Shown here in pieces: positions 3,713 to 53,189 of a DNA stretch of 64,000 nucleotides (positions are counted from its first letter, which is position 1; each line of letters opens with the position of its first letter). The notes beneath the pieces are model-generated. The model was not told the DNA's origin, ran no database searches, and worked only from the letters and a program-made list of their open reading frames with translations. The stretch is taken from assembly GCA_902593795.1 (NCBI GenBank), contig CACJJR010000001.1, positions 131,230-195,229 of the forward strand. Direction: 5' to 3'. The position numbers were made by a program, and so were the translations under genes. Origin of the DNA: an uncultured Candidatus Actinomarina sp. Lineage in GTDB: Bacteria > Actinomycetota > Acidimicrobiia > Actinomarinales > Actinomarinaceae.

Positions 3713-3883
3713 ATATTAACTATTATATGAAATATTTCGTTTTACAAATAAATTACGTAATTTTATTAAAATTATAGATAGGACTTCCTTTCGTGCTTTG
3801 AGCCACTTCTAAAGCCGATAAAACAAAAATTTACAGCCACGGGGAGTCTTTTTGCTTTTTTTGGAATAAAAACCCTGTAAAAA

Positions 3884-4035
3884 GTGAAAATCCCGATTGA
3901 TCTTGCGACCTTCCGGGATTTTCTTACTATCTTCAATTAGGTCTTGCGACTTCATTTCTTATAGTTATATAAAAGTACAGTAGTTTTGTGATTTAAGCAA
4001 GATATTTTTGTTTCTTTTTTTCGCGAACTTTTATA
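3884..4035 (-). promoter_or_regulatory. copy A of a duplicated ~150-nt upstream element (promoter-like part plus a 36-nt hairpin with U tract) before the BNR lipoprotein gene 2174..3712
   Basis: It aligns block by block with 5069..5221. The hairpin at 3887..3922 is AAAATCCCG/CGGGATTTT enclosing GGTC-GCAA-GATC (minus-strand sense). It also has a TTCGCGAA palindrome at 4020..4027. Confidence 0.5.
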
Positions 4036-4058
4036 CATGTTTTCTATAGTTTTTATAT

Positions 4059-5036
4059 CTATGGCGTTATTAAAACCATGGAGTAAAGAATGTAATCTCT
4101 GTCTCCTAACTCATTTGGAGCTACAGAAGATATCAATAAATAAGTGCCGTTGTCTAACAAAATACCTGTTGGGTCAAGATAGCTCATATTCGTTGGTGAT
4201 ATTGCATTTCCAGTAAATTCCCAAGTAAGGCCATCTTTTGACGTACCGTAAAAAATACTCTGAGGGATTCTTGGAAGCCCTTCTGGTGAATAGGAAAAGA
4301 CAGCCTCCCAATTATTTTCTTCAGCTCGTAAAACTTCAAAATCAACATAACCATTTTCTAGCCTGTATCCTGGATCTTTCGTAAATTTTATTCCTTTAGG
4401 TGAATCTGAAGTAGCGCTTACTATTTTTTCTCCACGCATTCCTGTTGATTCTGCAACCCAATAAAGTCTTACACGTCCATCCGGTAAAAGAACTGAATCG
4501 GGAACACCCCAAGCCATACTTCCGCCATCGTTAAAACCTAACGATTTTGATTCGGAGTAGGTTAGTCCATCCTCACTGAATATAGCCGTATATATTTCTT
4601 TCGATTTTGTATTAGGGTTGAGTTCAACATAATACCCCCTTCTAACACCATCTACAGTTGTAATTAATGTTAAGTCTTGAACTCTGTTTACTACACCTTG
4701 TCTGATACAGTTCAGTTCATAATCACATAAATCCACAGCTAATCCCATTACATCAAGACTCGAATAAAAAATTCTTAATGTAGAGCTGTCAACAACTTCC
4801 ATATGTGGACTTACGCCCCTTACCATCATGTTTTTAATTTCTGAAAGAACTCCGTCTGGCTGAAGAGTAGTTGTGGTTGTATCTTGAACTGTAGTTGTGG
4901 TTGTATCTTGAACTGTAGTTGTGGTTGTCTCCTGTTCTTCAGTAGAAGCAGGCTGTTCAACTGAGCTTGTAACACCCTCTACGCTTGAACCTCCACAAGA
5001 AATAAGTATGAATCCTAAAAATATTATTTTCTTCAT
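4059..5036 (-). CDS. lipoprotein with a Thr-rich linker and a BNR (Asp-box) beta-propeller-like domain, function unknown
   Basis: 325 aa. It has the lipobox LISC, the linker TTTTTVQDTTTTTVQDTTTTTLQ, and Asp-boxes SEDGLTY and SKDGLTW. Confidence 0.7.
   Translation of the reverse strand: MKKIIFLGFILISCGGSSVEGVTSSVEQPASTEEQETTTTTVQDTTTTTVQDTTTTTLQPDGVLSEIKNMMVRGVSPHMEVVDSSTLRIFYSSLDVMGLAVDLCDYELNCIRQGVVNRVQDLTLITTVDGVRRGYYVELNPNTKSKEIYTAIFSEDGLTYSESKSLGFNDGGSMAWGVPDSVLLPDGRVRLYWVAESTGMRGEKIVSATSDSPKGIKFTKDPGYRLENGYVDFEVLRAEENNWEAVFSYSPEGLPRIPQSIFYGTSKDGLTWEFTGNAISPTNMSYLDPTGILLDNGTYLLISSVAPNELGDRDYILYSMVLITP
4867..4930 (-). repeat. 24-bp tandem repeat (about 2.6 copies) encoding the Thr-rich linker
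   Basis: On the plus strand, gtagttgtggttgtatcttgaact occurs at 4867..4890 and again exactly at 4891..4914. A diverged partial copy follows to 4930. Confidence 0.9.
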
Positions 5037-5068
5037 ATTTTGATACTACACAGTTATTTCATGACAAA

Positions 5069-16467: not shown

Positions 16468-17067
16468 TTAATCGTCCCATTCCTCGTCTTTTAATTCTTC
16501 TGGCATTGTTTCCTCGCAGGCCTGCCATGTCTGAACGATTGGATCATCTTCGCTAAAATCCCATTCTTCAGTTGTGTATGCATCAAGGTTCACATTTCTA
16601 TTAAAGTAATCGGGATCAGGAACCCTTGGATATCCATTCTCTCTAAAACACTTTGCAATAAAAAGAGAAGAGTCTAATTCTTTTGCCACTTGTGCAGGGT
16701 CTTCAAATTGATTTTCATCAGCAACACCCCATAAATTATATTTCAATGCACATTCCTCGATAATATCCCAAAGTTCTTCCGCTTCCTGTTCTGTTATTGT
16801 TTCAAAATAAGAAGCAATGGTTGTATAAAGGTCTAAGAAGTTTTTAGGTTCTTTAAATTTATAACCAGATTCATTTACACATTGAACAAGGACTAGTGGG
16901 GCATCTTCATCTGAGATTTCTTCTCTTTCATCTGACAACTCAACACCCAATGAAATTGCTTCTTTTCCTTTGTCAGTGTCAGCAACTGAAACAACAGATT
17001 TTTCTTCTTGTTGGAATAAAGAACAAGCTGTTAATAATACGAGTATTATTGAGGTTTTTTTATACAT
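16468..17067 (-). CDS. acidic Cys-pair-repeat lipoprotein, paralog 2 of 4
   Basis: 199 aa. It has the lipobox LLTAC. The repeats are LVQCVNESGYKFKEP...IEEC and IAKCFRENGYPRVPDP...WQAC. Confidence 0.7.
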   Translation of the reverse strand: MYKKTSIILVLLTACSLFQQEEKSVVSVADTDKGKEAISLGVELSDEREEISDEDAPLVLVQCVNESGYKFKEPKNFLDLYTTIASYFETITEQEAEELWDIIEECALKYNLWGVADENQFEDPAQVAKELDSSLFIAKCFRENGYPRVPDPDYFNRNVNLDAYTTEEWDFSEDDPIVQTWQACEETMPEELKDEEWDD

Positions 17068-17092
17068 ATAAAATTATAAATAATATGTAGTT

Positions 17093-17683
17093 TTATCCTC
17101 CACCTTGCTGTGGTGGTTCAAGTCCGAGATCGTCAAAGCATTCTCCAGCAGCTTCTCTAACTTGGTCTTCTAAATATTGCCCAGACTGCACTAATCCAAC
17201 AAGTATTGGTCTAAGGGGTCTGTCTGCACTAGGGTCTTCAACCTCTATGCCTTTTCCTCTTAAGCATTGAGCAAATTCAAGCTCTGTATCAAGCCTTTCT
17301 GCAACATCTTCTGGATTCTCAAAGTCTGCGTTGTCTCCCAAAGGAATATTGTTTTCTTCTGCACACATTTGTATAGTCTGAAAAAGCTCTGTTCTTCCTC
17401 TTTCATCAGCTGCAATAAAGATCGGAGTTAAAACACTTCTTAAACCTTCATCGTTCTTTGGATCTTGAACGTCGTATCCGTTATCCCTTAAGCACCTAGC
17501 TAACAAAAGCTCAGCATCTTCAGGTGATAAAGTTTCTTCGACAACATCTTCTACGATAGTTGTTACCGTTGCGACAGTCGATAAGTCTTCTGTGGAAACT
17601 ACACCTTGTGAGTCATCTGACGAGGAGCACGCAGAGATAAGAACAAATATAAGTAATAAGAAAATGTTTAAGTATTTTTTCAT
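17093..17683 (-). CDS. acidic Cys-pair-repeat lipoprotein, paralog 3 of 4
   Basis: 196 aa. It has the lipobox LISAC. The repeats are LARCLRDNGYDVQDP...IQMC and FAQCLRGKGIEVEDP...AGEC. Confidence 0.7.
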   Translation of the reverse strand: MKKYLNIFLLLIFVLISACSSSDDSQGVVSTEDLSTVATVTTIVEDVVEETLSPEDAELLLARCLRDNGYDVQDPKNDEGLRSVLTPIFIAADERGRTELFQTIQMCAEENNIPLGDNADFENPEDVAERLDTELEFAQCLRGKGIEVEDPSADRPLRPILVGLVQSGQYLEDQVREAAGECFDDLGLEPPQQGGG

Positions 17684-17687
17684 AATT

Positions 17688-18128
17688 TTAATTGTTTTCC
17701 CTTATTGAAATTAAAAAGAAAATTAAAGTCACTAAACCTATCAAGGGAGAGAGCGCTCCCGGAGGATCTGCACTAATGATTAAAGACTTATAAAAACCAA
17801 TTCCTGCTCTGAATATGTTTTCTAAAGCAATAATTAACAACATAAGCGGAATAAGCTCTCTAATTTTTAAAACAACCAGAAGCAAAATGCAAGTTAAAAC
17901 TAGCTGTGAAAAACCCCACTGTGCAAATATTGAAACAATGTTGTTTGCAGCTTCTGGTGAATAACTACTTAGTGGAATGCCCGCAATAGATTCAGCTCCA
18001 CCATCTTCAGCAAATATGTGTTCAAGGCTTCTAAATAAGTTGAACCCAACTAGTAACCAACAAAAGTAGTAGATAAATTTGTTACTTGGAATTTTATTTT
18101 CGATTGTTTCGGGTATTAATTTTTTCAT
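17688..18128 (-). CDS. small 4-TM membrane protein, function unknown
   Basis: 146 aa with four hydrophobic segments. It sits between lipoprotein paralogs 3 and 4. Confidence 0.55.
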   Translation of the reverse strand: MKKLIPETIENKIPSNKFIYYFCWLLVGFNLFRSLEHIFAEDGGAESIAGIPLSSYSPEAANNIVSIFAQWGFSQLVLTCILLLVVLKIRELIPLMLLIIALENIFRAGIGFYKSLIISADPPGALSPLIGLVTLIFFLISIRENN

Positions 18129-18183
18129 AAAGTGTTTCTATGTTTTTAGTTTCTTTATTTTTTTTATTATACAAATCTAATAC

Positions 18184-18675
18184 TTATTTTTGCCAACCAC
18201 ATTCTTGTAACAGTGGTGTTATATCATCTTCTGATTTTTTTAATCCACTTAAGTCAAGTTTAGGCTCTTGTTGGCTAGGGTCTTCAATCTCTATGCCTTT
18301 TCCTCTTAGACATTTGGCTAACTCAAGATTTTCGTCGTATAATTTAGCAAGCTCCTCTGGATTTGAAGCAGATGAATCTGTCCAAAGATTGTATTTATTA
18401 ATACAATAATTAACATCGTCCCCCAACTGTAACTCTTCCTCCTTGCTATTGCTTAGTTGACTAATTGTTGTTTTTAAATCTTGTATGTCAAACGGTGTTG
18501 CTATGTTGTATCCCTTTTCTTCATTCAAACACTGAGATAAAACAATTGGATAATCCTCTTCTTCTATTATTGAGGTTGTTGTGGTGTTTCCCGAAAGAGA
18601 AGCTACTCCTTCATTGCTAGGGGCTGAACATAAACTTAAAAAAAGAATAAAAAGTAATAAATTTGTTTTTTTCAA
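18184..18675 (-). CDS. acidic Cys-pair-repeat lipoprotein, paralog 4 of 4
   Basis: 163 aa. It has the lipobox LSLC. The repeats are LSQCLNEEKGYNIATP...VNYC and LAKCLRGKGIEIEDP...LQEC. Confidence 0.7.
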   Translation of the reverse strand: MKKTNLLLFILFLSLCSAPSNEGVASLSGNTTTTSIIEEEDYPIVLSQCLNEEKGYNIATPFDIQDLKTTISQLSNSKEEELQLGDDVNYCINKYNLWTDSSASNPEELAKLYDENLELAKCLRGKGIEIEDPSQQEPKLDLSGLKKSEDDITPLLQECGWQK

Positions 18676-18677
18676 CT

Positions 18678-19781
18678 TTACTTATTCCTTAGACCAAACA
18701 ATGGCCTTAGTGGTTTGATGTTTTTTATAGCGTGATAAATAGTTAAAGAGAGAAAGCAAATCAAGAACAAGGCAATTGGAAATTTAATTATTGGATGAAT
18801 ATTTATACCTGCAAAAAAATACATTACTGCCATTTGTACAGGTAAGTGAACAATGTAAACAGGATAAACAGCTGTTTTATAATAGGTAAGTTGTGGTGAA
18901 TCATTGTTAAGATAAACAGCTCCTAGGCCCAGAAGTAAGAATATAAAATTAAAAGATTCGAAAGCTATGAGTCTATTGTCTAGTGCATAACCATCTTCGA
19001 AATTATTAAAAAATCTATACATATAAGAAACACTTGCAAAAGCTAGATGTATTCGCCAATTTCGCTTATTTGATTCCCAGAAAGCCTCGCCCTGTGAAGT
19101 TAAGACTATGCCGATCAAGAACCATAAAAAACCAAGTAGTAGCCCGTGCTCGGTGTTTGCATATTCGTTATAAAAATTTCCATAGTACGAATCGGGATTA
19201 AATCTAAGAAGGTTTAGAACGTGACCTTCAAGAATAATCGGTATTAAAAATATAAATATACCTCCGGGTTGTTGAAGCAAAGAAGAAATAATGCCTTCTT
19301 TTTGATTTTTATTAGAAATAAAATTTAAAACAGGAACTAACAGTATGCAGTAAATCAAGATATTTAAGAGAAACCATAAATGAACACCATTAAATTCAAA
19401 AGCAGCAAATATTAACCATAATGAGTCGGGTGACCAACCCTCATAATATGTAACTGCAATTACGAGAGAAGCTGTAGCAAATGTGATGGTTCCAAACAGC
19501 CAGGGGACTACAAGAATCTTAACTCTTTCTTTTAATATTTCTGGGCGTGTTCTTTTTTGAAACGATAACCTTAGAGCAATTCCAGCAATCAAAAAAACTA
19601 ACGGTATTCTCCATGTGTTTAGTAAGTTCAGTAATGGCCAAATTCCATCAGCAATTCTTTTATTTTGAACAAAAAGAATATATGGAGAGAGTGAGGTAAA
19701 TGAAATTCCAAGATGATAAAAAATGAGCAGAAACATTGCTATGGACCTCAAAGCGTCAATATCGTATCTTCTCTCGTTCAT
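18678..19781 (-). CDS. acyltransferase family 3 (membrane-bound O-acyltransferase-like)
   Basis: 367 aa. The N-terminus RYDIDALRSIAMFLLIFYHLGISF is characteristic of acyltransferase_3 proteins. It is about 10 TM. Confidence 0.65.
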   Translation of the reverse strand: MNERRYDIDALRSIAMFLLIFYHLGISFTSLSPYILFVQNKRIADGIWPLLNLLNTWRIPLVFLIAGIALRLSFQKRTRPEILKERVKILVVPWLFGTITFATASLVIAVTYYEGWSPDSLWLIFAAFEFNGVHLWFLLNILIYCILLVPVLNFISNKNQKEGIISSLLQQPGGIFIFLIPIILEGHVLNLLRFNPDSYYGNFYNEYANTEHGLLLGFLWFLIGIVLTSQGEAFWESNKRNWRIHLAFASVSYMYRFFNNFEDGYALDNRLIAFESFNFIFLLLGLGAVYLNNDSPQLTYYKTAVYPVYIVHLPVQMAVMYFFAGINIHPIIKFPIALFLICFLSLTIYHAIKNIKPLRPLFGLRNK

Positions 19782-19809
19782 ATGAACAATATTAATGCCT
19801 GGGTTTGAA

Positions 19810-20244
19810 TTAATTAAATTGTAGTTTCTCTTTAAGGTCTTCAGTTATTGGTGTGGCTTTCATGGTTGTTTGATCTGTATAAACATGAACCGCTTCACAA
19901 GAACTTACTAGTTCCCCTGTTTCTTTTAAAAACATTCCCATAATCCAGGTCATACTTGAGTTGCCTATTTCCTTAACTCTGACCCCAATCTCTATATCCT
20001 GATCAAAGTAGAGAGGTTTGTTGTACTGAACTAATACCTGTACAGTATGAAAATCTTTTTTCGTCTCTTCGATGTCTTTCAAGTAATCATAATTTATATG
20101 CTTAAAATAAGCAGTAATTGCCTGATCAAAAAATGCTACGTGATTAGCATTGTGCATTACTCCTTGTGGATCAAGTTCATAATATCTAACAGTTGTTTCC
20201 CAAAAAGCTTGAAATTCTTCTCTAGATAGGTTTATTTTTGACAT
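19810..20244 (-). CDS. acyl-CoA thioesterase, hotdog fold (YbgC/4HBT-like)
   Basis: 144 aa. The block VRYYELDPQGVMHNANHVAFFDQA matches the catalytic-Asp N-terminal pattern of 4HBT thioesterases. Confidence 0.65.
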   Translation of the reverse strand: MSKINLSREEFQAFWETTVRYYELDPQGVMHNANHVAFFDQAITAYFKHINYDYLKDIEETKKDFHTVQVLVQYNKPLYFDQDIEIGVRVKEIGNSSMTWIMGMFLKETGELVSSCEAVHVYTDQTTMKATPITEDLKEKLQFN

Positions 20245-21447
20245 CTAAACAAAAATTTGTGTTTTAGGTTCTATCCCACCAGTTAAAGGCATGGCATATT
20301 CAAAAAAATCGTTTGTAACATATGGTTTAGTCTCATCCAAAAAATCTTGAGGCATGTCTTTTGTATGTTTCGCAACTTTATTCAGCTCTACAACATCGAC
20401 ATCACAGTGGTATGTTTCTGACAATTGTCGTTTAAGAATTACAGATCCACTTTGTAGATCTTGAGAAGCGATAACAGCATGTTGTCCAACCCTCTCTGCT
20501 TCTTCAGCGTCTACATCAGAAACATCGGCTAAAAAAGATCTTTGTAAATATCCAAAGGTATCCGCCCTAACTCTTGCACTATCAATGTGTTCCGAAACTA
20601 TGTTTGTCAACGTATCGCCTAATGCCCCTGAGCCTGAGAGCTGGATATTTCCATGGCTGTCTTTTTTTCCAGCAAGGCCAGAACCTGTTTCACTTGCATA
20701 TGTCTGTAAGAAATATTCACCCTCTTCGTTATGTATACCTTCAGAGACTGCAATCACACATCTTCCAAGTGAATCATATACTTCTTTCACTTCTTTTAAA
20801 AATTCTTCAATTTTGAATACTTTTTCAGGAACATAAACTAAGTGGGGACCGTCTTCTTCGGTAGACTTACCTAAAGTGCTTGCAGCAGTAAGCCAGCCTG
20901 CGTGTCTACCCATCAAAACATTAATTTTAATTCCTTTGAGACTTCTATTGTCTGCATCATCCCCTTGAAAAGCATGTGCGACAAACCGGGCCGCTGAGCC
21001 ATAACCTGGACAGTGGTCTGTTTCAAGTAAATCATTATCAATAGTTTTTGGAATATGAAATGCTTTCATTTCATACCCAATAGAACTTGCTCCCTTTGCA
21101 ACAAGATTTGCTGTTTCTGCAGAATCATTACCGCCTATGTAGTAAAAGTTTCTAATGTTTTGTTTTTCAAATATTGAAACAAGTTTTTCTATATCAGATT
21201 CTGTAGGCTTTTTTCTTACCGAACCTAAGGCTGCAGCTGGTGTTTTACCAATTCCATAAAGTTGAGCTTCTGATAGGCTGGCAAGGTCAACAAAATCTTC
21301 ATTGAGCATTCCTTCTAATCCGTGTTTTGCGCCAAGGATTTCTTCAAAATCAGATTTAGTAGCTTCTTTAATAAAACCAACTAGTGACCTATTTATAACA
21401 GCTGTTGGACCTCCAGATTGTCCAATAACTGCTTTGCCTTGTGGCAT
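20245..21447 (-). CDS. 6-phosphofructokinase family, possibly PPi-dependent (PFP type)
   Basis: 400 aa. It has IGQSGGPTAVIN, IGGNDS (Asp at the position that is Gly in ATP-dependent enzymes), PKTIDND and MGRHAG. The cofactor choice is inference. Confidence 0.7.
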   Translation of the reverse strand: MPQGKAVIGQSGGPTAVINRSLVGFIKEATKSDFEEILGAKHGLEGMLNEDFVDLASLSEAQLYGIGKTPAAALGSVRKKPTESDIEKLVSIFEKQNIRNFYYIGGNDSAETANLVAKGASSIGYEMKAFHIPKTIDNDLLETDHCPGYGSAARFVAHAFQGDDADNRSLKGIKINVLMGRHAGWLTAASTLGKSTEEDGPHLVYVPEKVFKIEEFLKEVKEVYDSLGRCVIAVSEGIHNEEGEYFLQTYASETGSGLAGKKDSHGNIQLSGSGALGDTLTNIVSEHIDSARVRADTFGYLQRSFLADVSDVDAEEAERVGQHAVIASQDLQSGSVILKRQLSETYHCDVDVVELNKVAKHTKDMPQDFLDETKPYVTNDFFEYAMPLTGGIEPKTQIFV

Positions 21448-21449
21448 TT

Positions 21450-22361
21450 TTAGCTCCCGTTTTGATATACAGAAATAAAACTTAGATAAGAATCTGCAAT
21501 CTCTGTAACCGCTTCTTCTCGTGACTTTTCTTCTTCATGCCACCCTTTAAGAGAATTCCAGAAAATTGATCTTCCAATTGCAAAACCTTTATAACCGTCA
21601 ACAGAGGAACCCGCTCTAAGCCATTCATTGACTTTTTCATCATTTGCTCCTCTACCAAGAACAACTGCTATAACGTCTTCTCTTCCACCGTCTTTAATAA
21701 CTTTTGAAACATTTTCGTTATCTTCAACTGTGTCTAAACCTTCAATTTTCCAAATATCAGGATCTGCTCCTCTTTCTCTCATTTCCTCAACAACTTGTAC
21801 GGCTAGCTTAGGTCTAATTTCAGAATCATATCTTGCTTGATCACCATCAACGCTTGCTAATTGTTCTTCTGATGCAGGAACAAGAAACTCTAAAAGAAAC
21901 TTTCTCTCGTTTTCATCAAGCCATTCTGAAAGTGTTTTTATTCTTTCCCCTTGTATTTGCCTTGTTTCAGGGTCGTCATCAGGATTCCATCGGACGAGTA
22001 TCTTTACAAAATCAGCATTCACTTCTTTGATTTTTTCTCCAAAATCGTCACCATATTCAAAATCAAAAACTTTTTGTCCTGACTTTTCTACAGGTGCTGC
22101 AAGCTTAATACCCATTTCTTTTGCCCTGTTTTGAACTTGAAGTCCAAATGTTTCGTCTACAAGAATTGCGGGGTCTCCGCCATTTATTCCTTTACTGCTT
22201 GCTTCAAGAAACCCATCAAAAATTATATCTTTCATAGATGAGACTCTTGCTACCTCTTCATTAGAGGGCTGCCTTCCTTCAACACCCAAAAGTCCCTTTG
22301 TTAAAGTACCTCTGTGGTCAAATGCAAGTATGTATAAATCGTTTGGATACCCCTTCATCAA
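21450..22361 (-). CDS. class I aldolase-like (beta/alpha)8 protein (LacD / DUF2090 / Cgl0159-like family)
   Basis: 303 aa. The N-terminal ILAFDHRGTL block resembles tagatose-/sulfofructose-bisphosphate aldolase relatives. It lies 2 nt upstream of the PFK gene. Confidence 0.5.
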   Translation of the reverse strand: MMKGYPNDLYILAFDHRGTLTKGLLGVEGRQPSNEEVARVSSMKDIIFDGFLEASSKGINGGDPAILVDETFGLQVQNRAKEMGIKLAAPVEKSGQKVFDFEYGDDFGEKIKEVNADFVKILVRWNPDDDPETRQIQGERIKTLSEWLDENERKFLLEFLVPASEEQLASVDGDQARYDSEIRPKLAVQVVEEMRERGADPDIWKIEGLDTVEDNENVSKVIKDGGREDVIAVVLGRGANDEKVNEWLRAGSSVDGYKGFAIGRSIFWNSLKGWHEEEKSREEAVTEIADSYLSFISVYQNGS

Positions 22362-22368
22362 TTCTCCT

Positions 22369-23289
22369 TTAAACTTTTTGTTTAGTGTTTCTTCTAGTTA
22401 AAACATAAATCATTATTACTAAAAACAATAATGATATTAATAGTAACTGGTCAGAATACACGTTGGTTTGTGCACTTTCTTCGAAAGTAGTAGACAACTC
22501 TTCGACAAGCTGGACAGTAGTTGTTCCCCAGTTGCTTGCAAGAGTGTCATCAAGAAAATATACATTAGAGTTTTCTACTGCTGATATATTCCCCCAACCT
22601 TCTCTTATTGAAAGATCTTTATTTAAATAATCAGAGTGTCCTACAACAATATAGTCTGGATTAGACCCTATAACCATTTCCTCACTCAGAGCTGGATACC
22701 CACTTCCAAAAGGGTCTTCTTCTGAATTAGCAATGTTTACAATACCAAGTTCATTGTAAATTTCTCCAATTAGTGAATCAGAATTTACACTATAAATTCC
22801 ATAGGAATATCCAATTTCATGATAGACAGAGACATTTTCGTAATTAGCATCATCTAATATCCGGTTAATTTCTAGTTTCATGTCTCTAACCTTCGAAGAG
22901 GCCGCACCTTTTTTATTTACAATCTCTCCAATTGTTGAAATTTGAGAATAAACATCTTCAAAATTTTTCGCTGGTGGAAGTAAGACATAGTTGATTTCCT
23001 GGCTTTCAAGCCCGTCGACTATTCCATTAAAATCAAAGGCAACGATAACCATATCTGGATTTAATGGCGCAAGCTCTTCCGCTGTTACTGTGTATGCGTC
23101 TATTCTTTCCACTGGAAAATCAACCTCAGAAAAAGCATCCACTGCAATTAGTGTGTCTTGTGCTTCTAATGACTGAATAATTTCAGTGTGTGTTGTTGAT
23201 AAAGATATAATTTTTATATCTTCGCTTTCTTGTGCTGGACTCGAACACATCGATACCAACAAGGCAAGAAAAATTAACTTAGTTTTCAT
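22369..23289 (-). CDS. BtuF/FhuD-type (cluster A-II) periplasmic binding protein, probable cobalamin binder, with an N-terminal lipobox and a C-terminal TM anchor
   Basis: 306 aa. It has the lipobox VSMC and IISLSTTHTEIIQSLEAQDTLIAVD (Peripla_BP_2-like). The C-terminus is LLLISLLFLVIMIYVLTRRNTKQKV. A cobalamin riboswitch lies immediately upstream. Confidence 0.65.
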   Translation of the reverse strand: MKTKLIFLALLVSMCSSPAQESEDIKIISLSTTHTEIIQSLEAQDTLIAVDAFSEVDFPVERIDAYTVTAEELAPLNPDMVIVAFDFNGIVDGLESQEINYVLLPPAKNFEDVYSQISTIGEIVNKKGAASSKVRDMKLEINRILDDANYENVSVYHEIGYSYGIYSVNSDSLIGEIYNELGIVNIANSEEDPFGSGYPALSEEMVIGSNPDYIVVGHSDYLNKDLSIREGWGNISAVENSNVYFLDDTLASNWGTTTVQLVEELSTTFEESAQTNVYSDQLLLISLLFLVIMIYVLTRRNTKQKV

Positions 23290-23295
23290 AATTTC

Positions 23296-23465
23296 CTTTC
23301 TTACCTTGAGAAAATTTAGGAAACTTCAAGAATTTCTAGAAACTTCATCCCTTCTCTCGAGGACTGTCGTTATACAAATAATGAAGTCGACCTGACTTAT
23401 CTTTCGAATTACAGTTGCGGGACAGTGCTAGATTTTCACTAACTTCGCTCCATTATTCTTGTTGA
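23296..23465 (-). promoter_or_regulatory. cobalamin (B12) riboswitch
   Basis: The minus strand reads ...AAUGGAGCGAAGUUAGUGAAAAUCUAGCACUGUCCCGCAACUGUAA...GAUAAGUCAGGUCGACUUC... This matches the GGUGAAAAUCC / CCCGCAACUGUAA core and the AGUCAGG..AC B12-box. Downstream, UUUCCU can pair with the AGGAAA SD. Confidence 0.8.
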
Positions 23466-23476
23466 ATAGTAGCAGG

Positions 23477-50417: not shown

Positions 50418-50896
50418 ATGAATATTGAAACATACTCAATCTGGCTTCAAAATTCCCAACATAATAAAGAGATAACAAACCTAATCAATAGATATGCTTC
50501 TGATGGATCAAAAGATAGTTTTTTTCCACATGTAACACTTGTTACACATATTGTTACTGAAGAAAGAGGGGTTGAGACCTTAACACAGCTATCTAATGAT
50601 AAATGCGATATTGTTTTTGATAAATTTTCAATTGGAGACACATATTTTCAGAGGTTGTATCTAGAATCATCTGATAATTCTTACTTTTTTAATTCTGTTT
50701 CAAAAATCCAAGGATGGCCAAGCCTTTGGGTACCACATCTTTCATTAAGTTATGGGGATGAGTTACCTAAATCTTTCGACCCAGGGAGCTTAATGAACTC
50801 ATCCCTATAACTATTTCATTTGATACTCTGTCTTTATACAAAACAGGACCAAAGGTTTCAGAGTGGAAGGAGATAACCACTCTAAGACTTAATTGA
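50418..50896 (+). pseudogene. 2H phosphoesterase (cyclic phosphodiesterase/LigT-like) interrupted by a 1-nt frameshift
   Basis: The two HxT/S motifs are present (FPHVTLV, PHLSLSY). The frame ends at 50810. The shifted frame continues from ~50785 as RELNELIPITISFDTLSLYKTGPKVSEWKEITTLRLN* to 50896, a plausible C-terminal strand region. The switch is at the ccaggg run. Confidence 0.55.
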
Positions 50897-52237
50897 CTCC
50901 TTTGCTATCTTTACTTTTTCAGCAGGAAATTCGTAATCTACCATTTCTCCTGATAAGAAATTACTATAAGCCTGCATATCAAAGTGTCCATGACCACACA
51001 TGGCGGTTAAAACTGCAATGGACTTAGAGTTTTCATCTGCATTTTTTGCTGCTCGTATTGCTGACGCAATTGCATGAGTAGCCTCAGGAGCTGGAACTAT
51101 ACCTTCAGTTTTTGCAAATAACTGACCTGCTTCAAAACACTCTTTCTGACCTATAGCCTCTGCCTCAATTAATTTTTCTTCATACATAGCACTAACTAGT
51201 GGTGCCATTCCGTGGTATCTTAAACCACCAGCATGAATTGGATCAGGCACAAAAGAATGACCAAGGGTATGCATTTTGACTACGGGAGCCATTCCTACTG
51301 AGTCCCCAAAATCATATGCATACGTTCCCTTAGTCAAAGATGGACAAGCCTGTGGCTCAACAGCTCGTATAACTGTAGATTTGTTATTTTGCATATTCTC
51401 TCTAGCAAAAGGTGTAAAAAGACCAGCAAAGTTTGAACCACCTCCAGTACAACCAACAATTACATCTGGATAGTCGTCTGTAAGTTCTAATTGTTTTAAT
51501 GCCTCTTCACCAATAATTGTCTGATGCATTAGGACATGATTCAACACACTTCCTAATGCGTATCTTGTTTTCTCATCTTTTGCTGCAACTTCAATAGCTT
51601 CTGAAATAGCAATACCCAGACTTCCAGGAGTTTCAGGGTCTTCAGAAAGGAATTTTTTTCCAATATCTGTTCTTTCAGAGGGGCTTGAATACACTTTTGC
51701 ACCATATATCTCCATCATTGTTTTCCTATATGGTTTTGCCAAATATGATGCAGCTACTTGAAACACCTCTAGTTCAATTCCAAAAGCTTGGCATGCAAAA
51801 GCCAGAGCAGAACCCCACTGCCCAGCACCTGTTTCTGTAACCATTTTTTTAACACCTTCTTCAGCGTTATAAAACGCTTGGGGGATTGCAGTGTTAGGTT
51901 TATGCGAGCCAGACGGGGATCCACCTTCATATTTATAATAAATTCTTGATTTTGTACCCAGAGCTTTCTCAAGACGAATTGCTCTAAATAACGGAGAAGG
52001 CCTATAAAGCTTATATAAGTCTAAGACAGGTTTTGGTATGTCTATAAACGAATCTTGAGATACTTCTTGTAAAATCAATCCCATTGGAAATAGAGGAGCT
52101 AAATCCTCCGGACCAATTGGTTCCATTGTCTGTGGATTCAACGGTGGTGGTAATGGATTTGGCAAATCTGGGATTATGTTATACCACCTTGTTGGCATCT
52201 CAGATTCTGACAATAAAAATTTATATTGTTCGCTCAT
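50882..52237 (-). CDS. trpB: TrpB2-type tryptophan synthase beta-like enzyme (stand-alone)
   Basis: 451 aa. It has the TrpB2-specific N-terminus MPTRWYNIIPDLP...PPLNP, the PLP lysine GSHKPNTA, and GGGSNFAG. Confidence 0.85.
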   Translation of the reverse strand: MSEQYKFLLSESEMPTRWYNIIPDLPNPLPPPLNPQTMEPIGPEDLAPLFPMGLILQEVSQDSFIDIPKPVLDLYKLYRPSPLFRAIRLEKALGTKSRIYYKYEGGSPSGSHKPNTAIPQAFYNAEEGVKKMVTETGAGQWGSALAFACQAFGIELEVFQVAASYLAKPYRKTMMEIYGAKVYSSPSERTDIGKKFLSEDPETPGSLGIAISEAIEVAAKDEKTRYALGSVLNHVLMHQTIIGEEALKQLELTDDYPDVIVGCTGGGSNFAGLFTPFARENMQNNKSTVIRAVEPQACPSLTKGTYAYDFGDSVGMAPVVKMHTLGHSFVPDPIHAGGLRYHGMAPLVSAMYEEKLIEAEAIGQKECFEAGQLFAKTEGIVPAPEATHAIASAIRAAKNADENSKSIAVLTAMCGHGHFDMQAYSNFLSGEMVDYEFPAEKVKIAKESIKS

Positions 52238-52252
52238 TGTTCCTCCTAAAAT

Positions 52253-52278
52253 AAAAAAACCGGGCTGTGCCCGGCTTT
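52253..52278 (-). terminator. intrinsic terminator located inside the trpB2 5' leader (attenuator)
   Basis: The minus strand reads AAAG-CCGGGC-ACA-GCCCGG-UUUUUUU. It is a GC stem in an AT-rich genome with a 7-U tract, and it ends 14 nt before the AGGAGG SD of trpB2. No minus-strand gene lies upstream that it could serve. Confidence 0.75.
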
Positions 52279-52302
52279 AGAAAACAACATAGAACTAGGC
52301 AC

Positions 52303-52347
52303 CTACATATGTAGAATCCACCAGTTCCAGTTTGTTACTTTATACAT
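52303..52347 (-). CDS. 14-codon Trp-rich leader peptide (trpL-like)
   Basis: ATG TAT AAA GTA ACA AAC TGG AAC TGG TGG ATT CTA CAT ATG TAG encodes MYKVTNWNWWILHM. Three of the 14 codons are Trp. The stop is followed directly by GUGCC, which can pair with GGCAC in the terminator. Confidence 0.6.
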   Translation of the reverse strand: MYKVTNWNWWILHM

Positions 52348-52460
52348 TGTTATAAATGTAGATGTTTTTTATAAAATTTCAAAATTATAATTGTAAATTT
52401 TTTGTTAACAATACATTAACAAAATATCAATAAACCAACTTATTACCTAGTATTGAACTC

Positions 52461-53189
52461 ATGAATAAAATAATCCACTCACTAAATTTAACAAAAATTT
52501 ATGGTGAAAAAGAAACTAGCGTTACAGCGCTAGACGATATTAATGTTGAATTTAAAGAAAATGATTTTACGGCAATTATGGGACCTTCTGGTTCCGGAAA
52601 GTCCACTTTACTTCATTGCCTAGCGGGACTAGATAGACCTACATCAGGTCAAATTTATTTGAGAGAAGAAGATATATCAACACTTAATGACAAACAATTA
52701 ACAAAAATTAGAAGAGATAGTTTTGGTTTTGTTTTTCAAGCATTTAATTTAATCCCAACTCTAACTGCTGAAGAAAACATTACCCTTCCCGCATCAATAG
52801 CTGGTAGAAAGCCAGATATGGACTGGGTAAAACAAGTTGTTGATGCAGTAGATATTGGTGACAGGTTAACTCACAGGCCGAACGAATTATCTGGTGGCCA
52901 ACAGCAACGTGTTGCAGCCGCACGAGCAATGGCGACGAAACCAGAAGTTATATTTGCTGATGAACCTTCAGGAAACTTAGATTCCAAATCAAGTAAAGAA
53001 TTACTAGTTTTTATGAAATCAGTAGTTGATGAATTGAACCAGACAATAATTATGGTGACACATGATCCCTATGCAGCTTCTTTTGCAAATAGAGTAGTCA
53101 TGTTAAAAGACGGAAGTATTGCAAGTGATTTAGAAAAACCAACCCAGGAAGAAATTGTTGCAGAGGTTACAGCCTTAACTAACATCTAA
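52461..53189 (+). CDS. ABC transporter ATP-binding protein (MacB/LolD-like)
   Basis: 242 aa. It has GPSGSGKST, LSGGQQQRVAAARAM and IFADEPSGNLD. Confidence 0.9.
   Translation: MNKIIHSLNLTKIYGEKETSVTALDDINVEFKENDFTAIMGPSGSGKSTLLHCLAGLDRPTSGQIYLREEDISTLNDKQLTKIRRDSFGFVFQAFNLIPTLTAEENITLPASIAGRKPDMDWVKQVVDAVDIGDRLTHRPNELSGGQQQRVAAARAMATKPEVIFADEPSGNLDSKSSKELLVFMKSVVDELNQTIIMVTHDPYAASFANRVVMLKDGSIASDLEKPTQEEIVAEVTALTNI

What the first reader, a model, noticed from the sequence alone, without database searches (positions are those of the whole stretch)
52238..52411. Ribosome-mediated Trp attenuator (leader peptide MYKVTNWNWWILHM plus terminator) in front of a stand-alone trpB2
On the minus strand the elements run in this order:
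- a promoter-like TTGTTA-16-TATAAT (52411..52384);
- a 14-codon ORF with three Trp codons in four positions (52347..52303);
- a 12-nt palindrome CUACAUAUGUAG spanning its stop;
- GUGCC, which can pair with GGCAC inside the terminator;
- a strong GC hairpin with a U7 tract (52278..52253);
- 14 nt further on, the AGGAGG SD of trpB2.
No upstream minus-strand gene needs this terminator, because the neighbouring ABC gene is divergent. The geometry fits the classical trp attenuation model. A ribosome reaching the stop codon would mask GUGCC and allow termination. A ribosome stalled at the UGG codons would leave GUGCC free. Trp-codon leaders are known for trp operons (E. coli trpL, corynebacterial and streptomycete leaders). 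I am not aware of one described for an isolated TrpB2-type gene, whose physiological role (indole salvage, or use of O-phosphoserine) is itself debated. The antiterminator pairing is short (5 bp), and the leader ORF has no visible SD.
Basis: partly seen in the sequence, partly recalled or inferred. Interest (0 to 1): 0.75.

Follow-up and report, generated by a model that had tools for sequence, protein, structure and literature searches.

The report
Tryptophan-sensing attenuator before orphan trpB2
A tiny tryptophan-rich leader gene followed by competing RNA hairpins and a terminator sits in front of a lone tryptophan-synthase-like gene (trpB2) in the marine bacterium Candidatus Actinomarina; it looks like a textbook starvation switch, and it implies that this reported tryptophan auxotroph makes tryptophan from scavenged indole when tryptophan runs short.

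Summary
On the minus strand, 52347..52303 encodes MYKVTNWNWWILHM. A strong intrinsic terminator follows at 52278..52253, then the SD and start of a TrpB2-type gene. The window comes from Candidatus Actinomarina (low-GC Actinomarinales).

All 19 related genomes and about 45 metagenomic contigs carry the same unit:
- a W-x-W-W leader ORF;
- a long hairpin pairing the Trp codons with the post-stop segment;
- an antiterminator, GUGCC(U/C):(G)GGCAC;
- the terminator.

One antiterminator pair shows a compensatory G-C to C-G swap involving a terminator-loop base. Ribosome-masked folds behave as classical attenuation predicts.

- The antiterminator is 6+3 bp (-9.7 kcal/mol), not 5 bp.
- The positionally conserved promoter is TTGAAA-16-TACATT. 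It ends 7 nt before the AUG, which implies a leaderless leader mRNA and explains the missing SD.

Two papers report that Actinomarina lacks the canonical trp pathway, so this is a Trp-starvation switch on a salvage enzyme.

Unexpected: in many related contigs trpB2 is deleted or replaced, yet the leader unit stays conserved. That hints at a second, gene-independent role. I class it as a new member of a known kind.

The parts
52355..52382 (-). Probable promoter of the leader transcript: TTGAAA (52382-52377), 16-nt spacer, TACATT (52360-52355). The -10 element ends 7 nt before the leader AUG, so the mRNA is predicted to be leaderless or nearly so.
   Evidence: One search lists the site (9/12 matches); in 35 distinct upstream regions, TAnnnT at -13..-8 (T at -13 in 33/35, T at -8 in 31/35) and TTG at -35..-33 (35/35, 32/35, 25/35) hold a fixed distance from the ATG. 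The transcription start site is inferred, not measured.
52384..52411 (-). It contains the palindrome TGTTAACA. It may be an alternative promoter, or an element of the divergent ABC gene.
   Evidence: 10/12 matches. It is conserved only among the window's close relatives (group A). It would give a 30-nt 5' UTR without an SD.
52303..52347 (-). Leader ORF, 14 codons plus stop: MYKVTNWNWWILHM*. Regulatory UGG codons are at 52329-52327, 52323-52321 and 52320-52318.
   Evidence: The ORF is conserved in all 19 genome loci and in about 45 metagenome contigs.
52318..52336 (-). Segment 1: codons 4-10 including all three UGG. It forms the 5' strand of the anti-antiterminator hairpin.
   Evidence: MFE structures. 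All 37 distinct leaders form the equivalent hairpin from lineage-specific complementary sequences (mean z = -2.9). Group B consensus has 21 bp.
52303..52314 (-). Invariant small hairpin CUAC-AUAU-GUAG spanning the last codons and the stop codon. It forms the apex of the 1:2 hairpin and may act as a pause element.
   Evidence: Invariant in the genome set, although the reading frame across it differs by 1 nt between group A and group B. That points to RNA-level rather than peptide-level constraint. A pausing role is inference.
52283..52302 (-). Segment 2: GUGCCUAGUUCUAUGUUGUU. It pairs either with segment 1, or with segment 3 through GUGCCU (52302-52297) and GUU (52295-52293).
52267..52278 (-). 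Segment 3: terminator 5' arm plus loop bases, AAAGCCGGGCAC. GGGCAC (52272-52267) and AGC (52276-52274) pair with segment 2 to form the antiterminator.
   Evidence: antiterminator of -9.7 kcal/mol when the ribosome is at a UGG codon; 89.7% of cells paired against 36-54% in slid controls, and a G-C to C-G compensatory change at the loop position.
52253..52265 (-). Segment 4: terminator 3' arm GCCCGG plus the U7 tract. Together with segment 3 it forms the intrinsic terminator (52278..52253, -15.2 kcal/mol).
52242..52247 (-). Shine-Dalgarno sequence AGGAGG of trpB2.
   Evidence: Conserved as GGAG(G) in trpB2-bearing loci.
50882..52237 (-). trpB2, a 451-aa TrpB-like PLP enzyme of the TrpB2 type. 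This is the regulated gene.
   Evidence: NCBIfam NF009057 at 706.9 bits (cut-off 366) and TIGR01415 at 614.5 bits (cut-off 518.85); canonical TrpB TIGR00263 at only 145 bits, below its 392 cut-off. Best solved structures are TrpB2-type chains 6HUL_B, 4QYS_B and 6HTE_B (E 1e-110 to 5e-127) against about 1e-34 for TrpB1. The PLP lysine motif GSHKPN is present.

Best explanation
This is a classical ribosome-mediated (leader-peptide) transcription attenuator that couples trpB2 expression to the supply of charged tRNA-Trp.

Transcription probably starts at or next to the leader AUG, giving a leaderless mRNA. A ribosome translates the 14-codon ORF while RNA polymerase transcribes segments 2 to 4.

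When Trp is plentiful, the ribosome runs to the UAG stop. Its footprint covers GUGCCUAGUU, which lies immediately downstream. After release, segment 1 re-pairs with segment 2. Either way segment 3 stays free, the GC-rich terminator 3:4 forms, and transcription stops at the U7 tract (about 52253).

When Trp-tRNA is scarce, the ribosome stalls on one of the three UGG codons. Segment 1 is then masked and segment 2 is exposed. GUGCCU/GUU pairs with GGGCAC/AGC of the terminator 5' arm and loop before the 3' arm is made. The polymerase reads through into trpB2.

Actinomarina is reported to lack the canonical trp genes. TrpB2 would therefore make Trp from scavenged indole plus serine or O-phosphoserine. 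The switch turns this salvage enzyme on only under Trp starvation.

Shown here: all sequence elements, their conservation, the alternative pairings, and one compensatory change.

Inferred: the transcription start site, ribosome-polymerase coupling, actual Trp-dependent read-through, and the enzyme's substrate.
For: Gene and organism.
- The downstream gene is TrpB2-type.
- The organism is Candidatus Actinomarina: 19 loci with 83-98% TrpB2 identity.

Conservation of the leader.
- All 19 loci, found by protein and so unbiased for the leader, have a 13-14 codon ORF with W-x-W-W plus the terminator.
- None of the 61 high-GC actinobacterial trpB2 loci has one.
- The frame across the invariant CUACAUANGUAG differs between groups while the UGG codons stay. 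The constraint is therefore on Trp codons plus RNA, not on a peptide.

Alternative structures.
- Free RNA folds into the 1:2 hairpin plus the terminator (z = -4.1).
- In RNA truncated before the 3' arm, masking to P+15 at any UGG gives the antiterminator: -9.7 kcal/mol in the window, -5.1 to -11.8 in six other lineages.
- Masking at the stop codon abolishes it.

Covariation.
- Antiterminator helix on 31 distinct leaders: 89.7% of cells paired against 36-54% when slid.
- Pair 52:88 is G-C in 25 sequences and C-G in 3, with the 3' base lying in the terminator loop.
- 0 of 500 shuffles reach the observed covariation score.
- The 1:2 hairpin is kept by different complementary sequences in every lineage.

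Other support.
- Promoter at a fixed distance from the AUG.
- No Rfam family accounts for the region.
- Canonical trp KOs are 0/84 in complete Actinomarina genomes. An earlier study reached the same conclusion.
- Classical trp attenuators are known in other Actinobacteria.
Against: - There are no expression data: premature termination at about 52253 and its relief by Trp starvation are untested.
- At equilibrium the terminator (-15.2 kcal/mol) beats the antiterminator (-9.7) even with segment 1 masked. The switch therefore has to be kinetic, as in E. coli.
- Only one antiterminator pair shows a true double change, in one clade. The other variation is one-sided. The control notes that related sequences can exceed shuffles without any structure.
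- The metagenome set was selected by a pattern that fixes TGGTGG and the palindrome, and my filter fixed CCGGG/CCCGG.
- In many related contigs trpB2 is missing or replaced yet the leader persists under purifying selection. Cis control of trpB2 therefore cannot be the unit's only function across the clade.
- The SD-to-ATG spacing of 4 nt is short.
Confidence: 0.8

Rival explanations
1. The unit is also, or primarily, a stand-alone Trp-sensing small RNA or dual-function gene. The terminated attenuator RNA, or the read-through RNA, would act in trans on other mRNAs, as rnTrpL does in Sinorhizobium. Control of trpB2 would be only one of its outputs. This does not exclude cis attenuation in the window.
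For: - In at least 19 metagenomic contigs the complete unit sits in the same synteny slot with trpB2 deleted. In 3 contigs trpB2 is replaced by a 744-746 aa PEP-utilising-domain protein.
- Orphan lineages are at saturation at 4-fold sites of the adjacent ABC gene (identity 0.35-0.45). Their leaders are nevertheless 82-93% identical, and the next 50 nt are 73-85% identical.
- The promoter positions are also kept in orphans.
- Precedent: the trp attenuator RNA rnTrpL acts in trans, and its trpL is leaderless.
Against: - No target is known, and none could be searched for genome-wide.
- The window itself has trpB2 directly behind the terminator and lacks the extra conserved post-terminator element.
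- trpB2 appears to be a flexible gene. All three states occur within the closely related group B, where an orphan (L105) and a trpB2-bearing leader (L009) are 96% identical. Recombination with trpB2-bearing strains could therefore help retain some orphan leaders.
- The orphan set was ascertained by a leader pattern, so lineages that lost the leader are invisible.
Confidence: 0.3
2. The hairpin is only a constitutive or bidirectional terminator and insulator between convergent and divergent genes, and the Trp-rich ORF is a chance feature of an AT-rich spacer.
For: - The hairpin has an A-tract upstream and a U-tract downstream, so it could terminate in both directions.
- The intergenic context is crowded, with a divergent ABC gene upstream and a convergent operon beyond trpB2.
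Against: - The ORF, its Trp codons, the 1:2 complementarity and the antiterminator are conserved across lineages that are saturated at synonymous sites.
- It is unique among 1070 small ORFs in the window.
- A constitutive strong terminator between a promoter and the only downstream gene would silence trpB2.
Confidence: 0.03
3. The leader works like TnaC. The nascent W-rich peptide would sense free tryptophan in the ribosome exit tunnel and stall at the stop codon, inducing the downstream gene when Trp is high.
For: It is a short Trp-containing leader peptide with a conserved core next to a stop codon.
Against: - The peptide's C-terminal half is not conserved: ILHM/TLHM against STT/TTT, with a frame shift relative to the RNA palindrome.
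- It has none of the spaced Trp, Asp and Pro residues that characterise TnaC (recalled from memory).
- An intrinsic terminator with a mutually exclusive antiterminator is present, rather than a Rho-dependent spacer.
- Induction of a Trp-forming enzyme by excess Trp makes no physiological sense.
Confidence: 0.03
4. Read-through is controlled by a trans factor that binds the leader RNA, either a T-box-like uncharged tRNA interaction or a TRAP-like protein, rather than by the translating ribosome.
For: Both mechanisms control trp genes in Gram-positive bacteria (established knowledge).
Against: - No T-box or other Rfam family is found at E <= 10 in the 501-nt region or at gathering thresholds in the window and 11 related loci.
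- The leader spans only about 95 nt from AUG to U-tract, too short for a T-box.
- There is no array of (G/U)AG repeats.
- The conserved in-frame UGG codons would be unexplained.
Confidence: 0.02

Closest known systems
E. coli / enterobacterial trpL attenuator (Rfam RF00513, Trp_leader)
   Same: It has a 14-codon leader ORF with adjacent UGG codons. It has four segments forming 1:2, 2:3 (antiterminator) and 3:4 (terminator plus U-tract). A ribosome at the stop codon masks segment 2. The logic is that Trp-tRNA shortage gives read-through.
   Different: There is no sequence or structure match to RF00513. Here there are three UGG codons in four positions instead of two adjacent ones. The transcript is probably leaderless. 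The regulated gene is a lone TrpB2-type gene, not trpEDCBA. The host is a low-GC actinobacterium reported to lack the pathway.
Predicted trp attenuators of Corynebacterium and Streptomyces (Seliverstov et al. 2005, PMC1262725)
   Same: They are in the same phylum. They have leader peptides with double or triple UGG codons, GC-rich terminators with poly-U, and conserved complementary triples shared by antiterminator and terminator.
   Different: Those attenuators precede trp operons or trpS2 in prototrophs. Their conserved motif is gGCC-rGCy-GGCC, whereas here it is GUGCC / GGGCAC / GCCCGG. The 'trpB2A' in that paper is a second operon copy, not shown to be a TrpB2-type orphan. None of the 61 high-GC actinobacterial TrpB2 loci examined here has such a leader.
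Sinorhizobium meliloti trpL / rnTrpL (PMC6614838)
   Same: It has a leaderless 14-codon trpL, and cis attenuation of a single downstream gene. The liberated attenuator RNA has a life of its own. That is the best analogy for the orphan leaders seen in relatives.
   Different: A trans function is demonstrated there and only inferred here from conservation without a downstream gene. There is no sequence similarity. The downstream gene there is trpE(G).
Leaderless short-ORF attenuators of mycobacteria (polycysteine uORFs; recalled from memory, not checked here)
   Same: They are actinobacterial leaderless mini-ORFs enriched in one amino acid that tune downstream biosynthetic genes.
   Different: As I recall, those act without a canonical intrinsic terminator. 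Here a canonical terminator/antiterminator pair is present.

Membership tests
Leader-peptide (ribosome-mediated) transcription attenuator, Trp class | Short ORF with clustered codons for the regulating amino acid | tested here: met
   MYKVTNWNWWILHM has 3 UGG codons in 4 positions. W-x-W-W is present in 18 of 19 unbiased genome loci and L-x-W-W in one.
Leader-peptide (ribosome-mediated) transcription attenuator, Trp class | Intrinsic terminator between the leader ORF and the structural gene | tested here: met
   10-pair stem with 6 G-C pairs and U7 at 52278..52253. Present in all related loci.
Leader-peptide (ribosome-mediated) transcription attenuator, Trp class | Antiterminator mutually exclusive with the terminator | tested here: met
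   GUGCCU/GUU pairs with GGGCAC/AGC at -9.7 kcal/mol. 89.7% of cells are paired across 31 leaders, with one compensatory pair involving a terminator-loop base.
Leader-peptide (ribosome-mediated) transcription attenuator, Trp class | Anti-antiterminator (1:2) overlapping the regulatory codons | tested here: met
   The Trp-codon region pairs with the post-stop segment in all 37 distinct leaders, using lineage-specific complementary sequences.
Leader-peptide (ribosome-mediated) transcription attenuator, Trp class | Geometry: a ribosome at the stop codon masks segment 2, and a ribosome at the regulatory codons frees it | tested here: met
   Constrained folds with the footprint extended to P+15: the antiterminator forms for each UGG position and is abolished at the stop codon, in 7 lineages. 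The footprint size is taken from general knowledge.
Leader-peptide (ribosome-mediated) transcription attenuator, Trp class | Read-through increases on Trp-tRNA limitation | not testable with these tools
   This needs Term-seq, reporter assays or in vitro coupled transcription-translation.
Rfam RF00513 Trp_leader | Match to the covariance model | tested here: not met
   There is no RF00513 hit even at E <= 10 in 52100..52600 or at gathering score in the window.
T-box leader | Match to T-box models, with Stem I, a specifier loop and the T-box sequence | tested here: not met
   No hit. The leader is only about 95 nt.
TrpB2 (TrpB-like PLP enzyme, TIGR01415 / NF009057) | Score above the curated cut-off of the TrpB2 models and below that of canonical TrpB | tested here: met
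   NF009057 scores 706.9 bits (cut-off 366) and TIGR01415 scores 614.5 (cut-off 518.85). TIGR00263 scores 145.3, below its 392.45 cut-off. The closest structures are TrpB2-type.
Attenuator-derived trans-acting sRNA (rnTrpL-like) | Attenuator RNA maintained independently of, or acting beyond, its cis gene | tested here: inconclusive
   Orphan leaders are conserved at 82-93% where neighbouring 4-fold sites are saturated. No targets or transcripts could be examined, and the window copy has its cis gene.

The most novel reading that the evidence does not exclude
The leader unit is a free-standing tryptophan sensor of Actinomarinales. It would be a leaderless mini-gene whose terminated or read-through RNA regulates other genes in trans, for example Trp uptake or use in an organism that cannot make Trp. 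trpB2 would be only an optional, frequently lost cargo plugged in behind it. That would explain why the complete unit, plus a conserved post-terminator element GUCACUGAAAWUAA..CCGGGC..ACCC, is kept under purifying selection in lineages where trpB2 is deleted or swapped for an unrelated PEP-utilising enzyme.
Probability: 0.25. Interest if true: 0.8.

Novelty: new member of a known kind. Interest (0 to 1): 0.6.

Why it matters
1. It gives regulatory evidence on the debated role of TrpB2. A switch that reads Trp-tRNA charging and turns the gene on under Trp starvation argues that the enzyme's in vivo job is to make tryptophan.

2. It qualifies the published picture of Actinomarina, one of the most abundant and smallest free-living marine bacteria, as a strict Trp auxotroph. 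Both studies scored only the canonical trp KOs (0/84 genomes). Strains carrying this locus should be able to convert indole to Trp, so indole becomes a candidate currency in surface-ocean cross-feeding.

3. It adds a leader-peptide attenuator family that is not in Rfam. The family comes from a phylogenetic group (Acidimicrobiia/Actinomarinales) with no experimental genetics. It shows that even a roughly 1.1-Mb streamlined genome retains this compact, protein-free regulation.

4. The orphan leaders offer a natural test of whether attenuators can outlive their genes as independent regulators.

Tried and rejected
- Rfam at gathering threshold on the whole window found only an AdoCbl riboswitch elsewhere. 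Rfam at E <= 10 on the leader gave only sub-threshold chance hits to unrelated sRNA, miRNA and snoRNA models. Rfam on 11 related loci found nothing.
- Equilibrium folding of the full leader with the ribosome masked never shows the antiterminator, because the terminator always wins. This was not taken as refutation, because the decision is co-transcriptional. Truncated folds were used instead.
- RNAalifold on the mixed alignment recovers only the small hairpin, GG:CC and the terminator, because indels in segment 2 break the alignment. The 1:2 hairpin was therefore tested per sequence and within group B.
- I looked for W-rich leaders upstream of 61 high-GC actinobacterial trpB2 genes and found none. 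The leader is specific to Actinomarina-type genomes among the loci retrieved.
- I searched the window for a second copy of the Trp-codon motif or of the post-terminator element and found none.
- About 75 of the 120 metagenome pattern hits were chance matches inside unrelated genes and were discarded.
- The literature search found no description of an attenuator before a TrpB2-type orphan. The library is incomplete, so absence is not proof.
- I considered and did not run a synteny-based, leader-independent sampling of Actinomarinales loci. It would need the large protein search plus many contig look-ups.
Full report
**What is there**

- TTGTTA-16-TATAAT lies at 52411..52384 (also found by the consensus scan).
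- An ATG at 52347 opens a 14-codon ORF, MYKVTNWNWWILHM, ending at TAG 52305-52303.
- The palindrome CUACAUAUGUAG (52314..52303) spans the last codons and the stop.
- GUGCC follows at 52302..52298.
- The hairpin AAAGCCGGGC-ACA-GCCCGGUUUU with seven U's occupies 52278..52253 (10 pairs, 6 of them G-C).
- AGGAGG is at 52247..52242, and the ATG of a 451-codon ORF is at 52237.

That ORF is a TrpB2-type enzyme.
- NCBIfam NF009057 scores 706.9 bits (cut-off 366) and TIGR01415 scores 614.5 (cut-off 518.85).
- The canonical TrpB model TIGR00263 scores 145, far below its cut-off.
- The nearest solved structures are the TrpB2-type chains 6HUL_B, 4QYS_B and 6HTE_B (E 1e-110 to 5e-127), against about 1e-34 for TrpB1 chains.

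The gene upstream (52461..53189, + strand) is a LolD/MacB-like ABC ATPase and is divergent. No upstream gene therefore needs the terminator.

**Is it more than chance?**

- Of 1070 ATG-initiated ORFs of 5-30 codons in the 64-kb window, this is the only one with three Trp codons followed by a T-run.
- TGGNNNTGGTGG is expected 0.18 times per window. The only other match lies inside a peptidase gene.
- The 134-nt leader folds at -37 kcal/mol, z = -4.1 against dinucleotide shuffles.
- No Rfam family matches. There is no hit at gathering threshold, and no Trp_leader or T-box hit even at E <= 10.

**Organism and pathway context**

A protein-based scan of one genome per species returned 19 loci with 83-98% TrpB2 identity. 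Eighteen are labelled Candidatus Actinomarina or OCS155 cluster; one (L007) is a short contig binned as Polynucleobacter. All are 34-37% G+C. The next hits were high-GC Actinomycetota at 70% identity or less.

Two papers state that Actinomarinales are tryptophan auxotrophs.
- Lopez-Perez et al. 2020 (PMC7771536).
- The 2026 preprint 'Actinomarina, resolved'. It scores K01609, K01657, K01658, K01695, K01696 and K13503 as 0/84 in complete genomes.

The TrpB2 orthologue group K06001 does not appear in the preprint's table. This gene was therefore not considered. It is a true orphan: the last enzyme of a pathway whose other steps are reported absent.

**Comparative test of the leader**

The 19 genome loci were retrieved by the protein, so they are unbiased with respect to the leader.
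- All 19 have a 13-14 codon ORF with W-x-W-W (L014 has L-x-W-W) followed by the terminator.
- None of the 61 high-GC trpB2 loci has anything similar.
- Two leader groups appear. Group A (the window's type) reads M[YI][KH].[TN]NW[NS]WW.LHM. Group B reads MKN[VI][TI][SN][WL][NH]WW[ST][ST]T.
- The nucleotide block CUACAUANGUAG is invariant, but the reading frame across it differs by one base between the groups.

The selection is therefore on the Trp codons and the RNA, not on a peptide sequence.

A metagenome scan with TGGTGG-N(2-6)-CTACATANGTAG added about 45 true leaders among 120 hits; the remainder were chance matches. This gave 37 distinct leader sequences.

**The alternative structures**

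The minimum-energy fold of the free leader has two parts.
- A long imperfect hairpin pairs codons 4-10, including all three UGG (segment 1, 52336..52318), with the segment after the stop codon (segment 2, 52302..52283).
- The terminator (segments 3 and 4) stands next to it.

Every one of the 37 distinct leaders forms the equivalent 1:2 hairpin, but from different complementary sequences. Examples are AACAA/UUGUU in the window, UUCAAA/UUUGAA in L007, and AAAUAAC/GUUAUUU in L117. The mean z is -2.9 against shuffles of segment 2. Group B gives a 21-bp consensus.

With the whole leader present, the terminator (-15.2 kcal/mol) is always the equilibrium winner. The decision must therefore be kinetic, as in the E. 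coli paradigm. Folding the RNA as it exists before the 3' arm is transcribed gives three outcomes.
- Unmasked: 1:2 forms and segment 3 stays single-stranded.
- Footprint extending to P+15 with any UGG in the A site: segment 2 pairs with segment 3. GUGCCU pairs with GGGCAC, and GUU with AGC, at -9.7 kcal/mol in the window and -5.1 to -11.8 in six other lineages.
- Ribosome at the stop codon: the 5' strand of this helix is covered and nothing competes with the terminator.

**Covariation**

On an alignment of 31 distinct leaders, the antiterminator helix (columns 51-57 with 83-89) is paired in 89.7% of cells. That compares with 36-54% when the 3' strand is slid by 1-3 columns.
- Pair 52:88 is G-C in 25 sequences, C-G in 3 (L099, L105, L148), and unpaired in 3. 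Two of the unpaired ones (L011, L017) are the one-step intermediate, C opposite C.
- Column 88 lies in the terminator loop, where the terminator itself imposes no constraint. This double change therefore speaks specifically for the antiterminator.
- Other changes are one-sided and wobble-compatible: U-A to U-G in L016, L018 and L186, and C-G to U-G in the GUGUC and GUGCUC lineages.
- 0 of 500 shuffles reach the observed covariation score.

Caveats:
- The tool warns that related sequences can exceed shuffles without structure.
- This is one compensatory event in one clade.
- The terminator core is invariant, partly by construction, because my filter required CCGGG...CCCGG in the metagenome hits.

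**Promoter and the missing SD**

Anchoring 35 distinct upstream regions on the leader ATG shows two conserved blocks.
- A -10-like TAnnnT at -13..-8: T at -13 in 33/35, A at -12 in 27/35, T at -8 in 31/35.
- A TTG at -35..-33: 35/35, 32/35 and 25/35.

In the window these are TTGAAA (52382-77) and TACATT (52360-55), also listed. A -10 element ending 7 nt before the AUG predicts a transcript that starts at or next to the A of AUG.

Leaderless mRNAs are common in Actinobacteria (general knowledge), and the S. meliloti trpL transcript is leaderless. This explains the absence of an SD.

I regard it as the less likely start, but no 5'-end data exist.

**Mechanism and confidence**

I conclude with about 0.8 confidence that this is a classical leader-peptide transcription attenuator. 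It switches trpB2 on when charged tRNA-Trp is scarce.

Shown here:
- the elements;
- their conservation in an unbiased genome set;
- mutually exclusive pairings with the right geometry;
- one compensatory change.

Inferred:
- the transcription start site;
- coupling of ribosome and polymerase;
- Trp-dependent read-through;
- the claim that TrpB2 condenses scavenged indole with serine or O-phosphoserine.

Rival readings are contradicted by the conservation pattern, the frame shift across the palindrome, the intrinsic terminator and the Rfam results. These rivals are:
- a constitutive or bidirectional terminator with a chance ORF;
- a TnaC-like free-Trp sensor;
- T-box or TRAP-like control.

**An unexpected complication: orphan leaders**

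In the metagenomic contigs the slot behind the leader is variable.
- Many contigs have trpB2.
- At least 19 contigs, representing about six leader sub-families, have the terminator followed within 60-80 nt by the 3' end of the convergent gene. That gene is a CPDase-like protein, a lipoprotein, or the Znu-type ABC operon that also lies beyond trpB2 in the window. There is no trpB2.
- Three contigs (L148, L168, L186) have a 744-746 aa protein with a PEP-utilising mobile domain in its place.

L168 still carries a remnant of the trpB2 start, and L099/L105 carry a decayed SD and ATG. These are therefore losses.

The orphan lineages are far apart. Four-fold-site identity in the adjacent ABC gene is 0.35-0.45, which is saturation for this AT-rich genome. 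Their leaders are nevertheless 82-93% identical, and the next 50 nt are 73-85% identical. Only 17 of about 95 leader positions were fixed by my search pattern, so ascertainment cannot explain this.

The unit therefore appears to be under purifying selection without its cis gene. The best analogy is rnTrpL of Sinorhizobium, a trp attenuator RNA that also acts in trans. I could not look for targets.

Alternatives:
- trpB2 is a flexible gene, and recombination with trpB2-bearing strains could keep some orphan leaders intact. All three states occur within group B.
- The hairpin may be needed as a bidirectional terminator. This would not explain the conserved ORF and 1:2 region.

I give the 'independent Trp-sensing RNA' reading about 0.25-0.3. 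It does not conflict with cis attenuation in the window.

**Comparison with what is known**

Functionally this is the E. coli trpL design. Within the phylum it parallels the predicted attenuators of Corynebacterium and Streptomyces trp operons and trpS2 (PMC1262725).

It is not a member of Rfam RF00513 (tested, no match) and has no sequence relationship to those leaders.

What is new is the context:
- a lone TrpB2-type gene;
- a genome reported to lack the rest of the pathway;
- a lineage with no prior RNA-regulation data.

Searches of the held literature found no description of an attenuator before a TrpB2-type orphan. The 'trpB2A' in the 2005 paper is a second operon copy in C. diphtheriae.

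I therefore class it as a new member of a known kind, with interest 0.6. The mechanism is textbook. It nevertheless gives regulatory evidence that TrpB2 makes tryptophan in vivo, revises the auxotrophy picture of a very abundant marine bacterium, and, through the orphan leaders, opens a question that complete genomes and metatranscriptomes could answer.

Noticed in passing
L088, L099, L103, L104, L105, L107, L117, L121, L130, L137, L138, L143, L149, L159, L167, L170, L181, L185, L191 (leader at the pattern match): These contigs carry orphan leaders. The full promoter, W-rich ORF, hairpins and terminator unit sits in the same synteny slot, but trpB2 is deleted. The leaders stay 82-93% identical between lineages whose neighbouring gene is saturated at 4-fold sites.
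   Followed up: partly
L148:5305-7545 of the reverse-complemented locus; also L168 and L186: A 744-746 aa protein replaces trpB2 directly behind the Trp leader and uses the old SD. Only its C-terminal PEP-utilising mobile domain (PF00391) is recognised. L168 keeps a short remnant of the trpB2 start (TTGAAAGAACAG...TAA).
   Followed up: partly
L009-L019, L135 and all orphan loci, 5-50 nt after the terminator U-tract; absent from the window: There is a conserved post-terminator element, (U)GUCACUGAAAWUAA-N(1-5)-CCGGGC-NNAA-CCC, with no Rfam match. CCGGGC repeats the terminator 5' arm, so it could pair with the freed 3' arm GCCCGG. In trpB2-bearing group B, an overlapping CUCC can pair with the SD GGAG (fold). 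This suggests a second, translational checkpoint. The element's role in orphans is unexplained.
   Followed up: partly
window 23337..23473 (-): An AdoCbl (cobalamin) riboswitch, RF01482, scores 54.6 bits (gathering score 50). It lies upstream of the minus-strand ORF cluster 16468..23289.
   Followed up: no
TTAACAAAA..TTTACA recurs in several other leader sub-families. It may be an operator or the divergent gene's promoter.
   Followed up: no
window 50418..50810 (+); L201:2355-2834, L204, L206: The CPDase-like (PF07823) gene convergent with trpB2 varies between strains that carry the identical TrpB2 protein. It is 130 aa in the window, 159 aa and overlapping the trpB2 3' end in L201/L205, and absent in L204/L206. 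The whole slot behaves like a small flexible region.
   Followed up: no
L130 about 3745-5058 (reverse strand) and L103 916-2463: The convergent membrane protein in some orphan loci contains a long histidine-rich tandem repeat, seen on the opposite frame as HRGHHVPL repeats. This is probably a metal-binding loop of a transporter next to the Znu-type operon.
   Followed up: no
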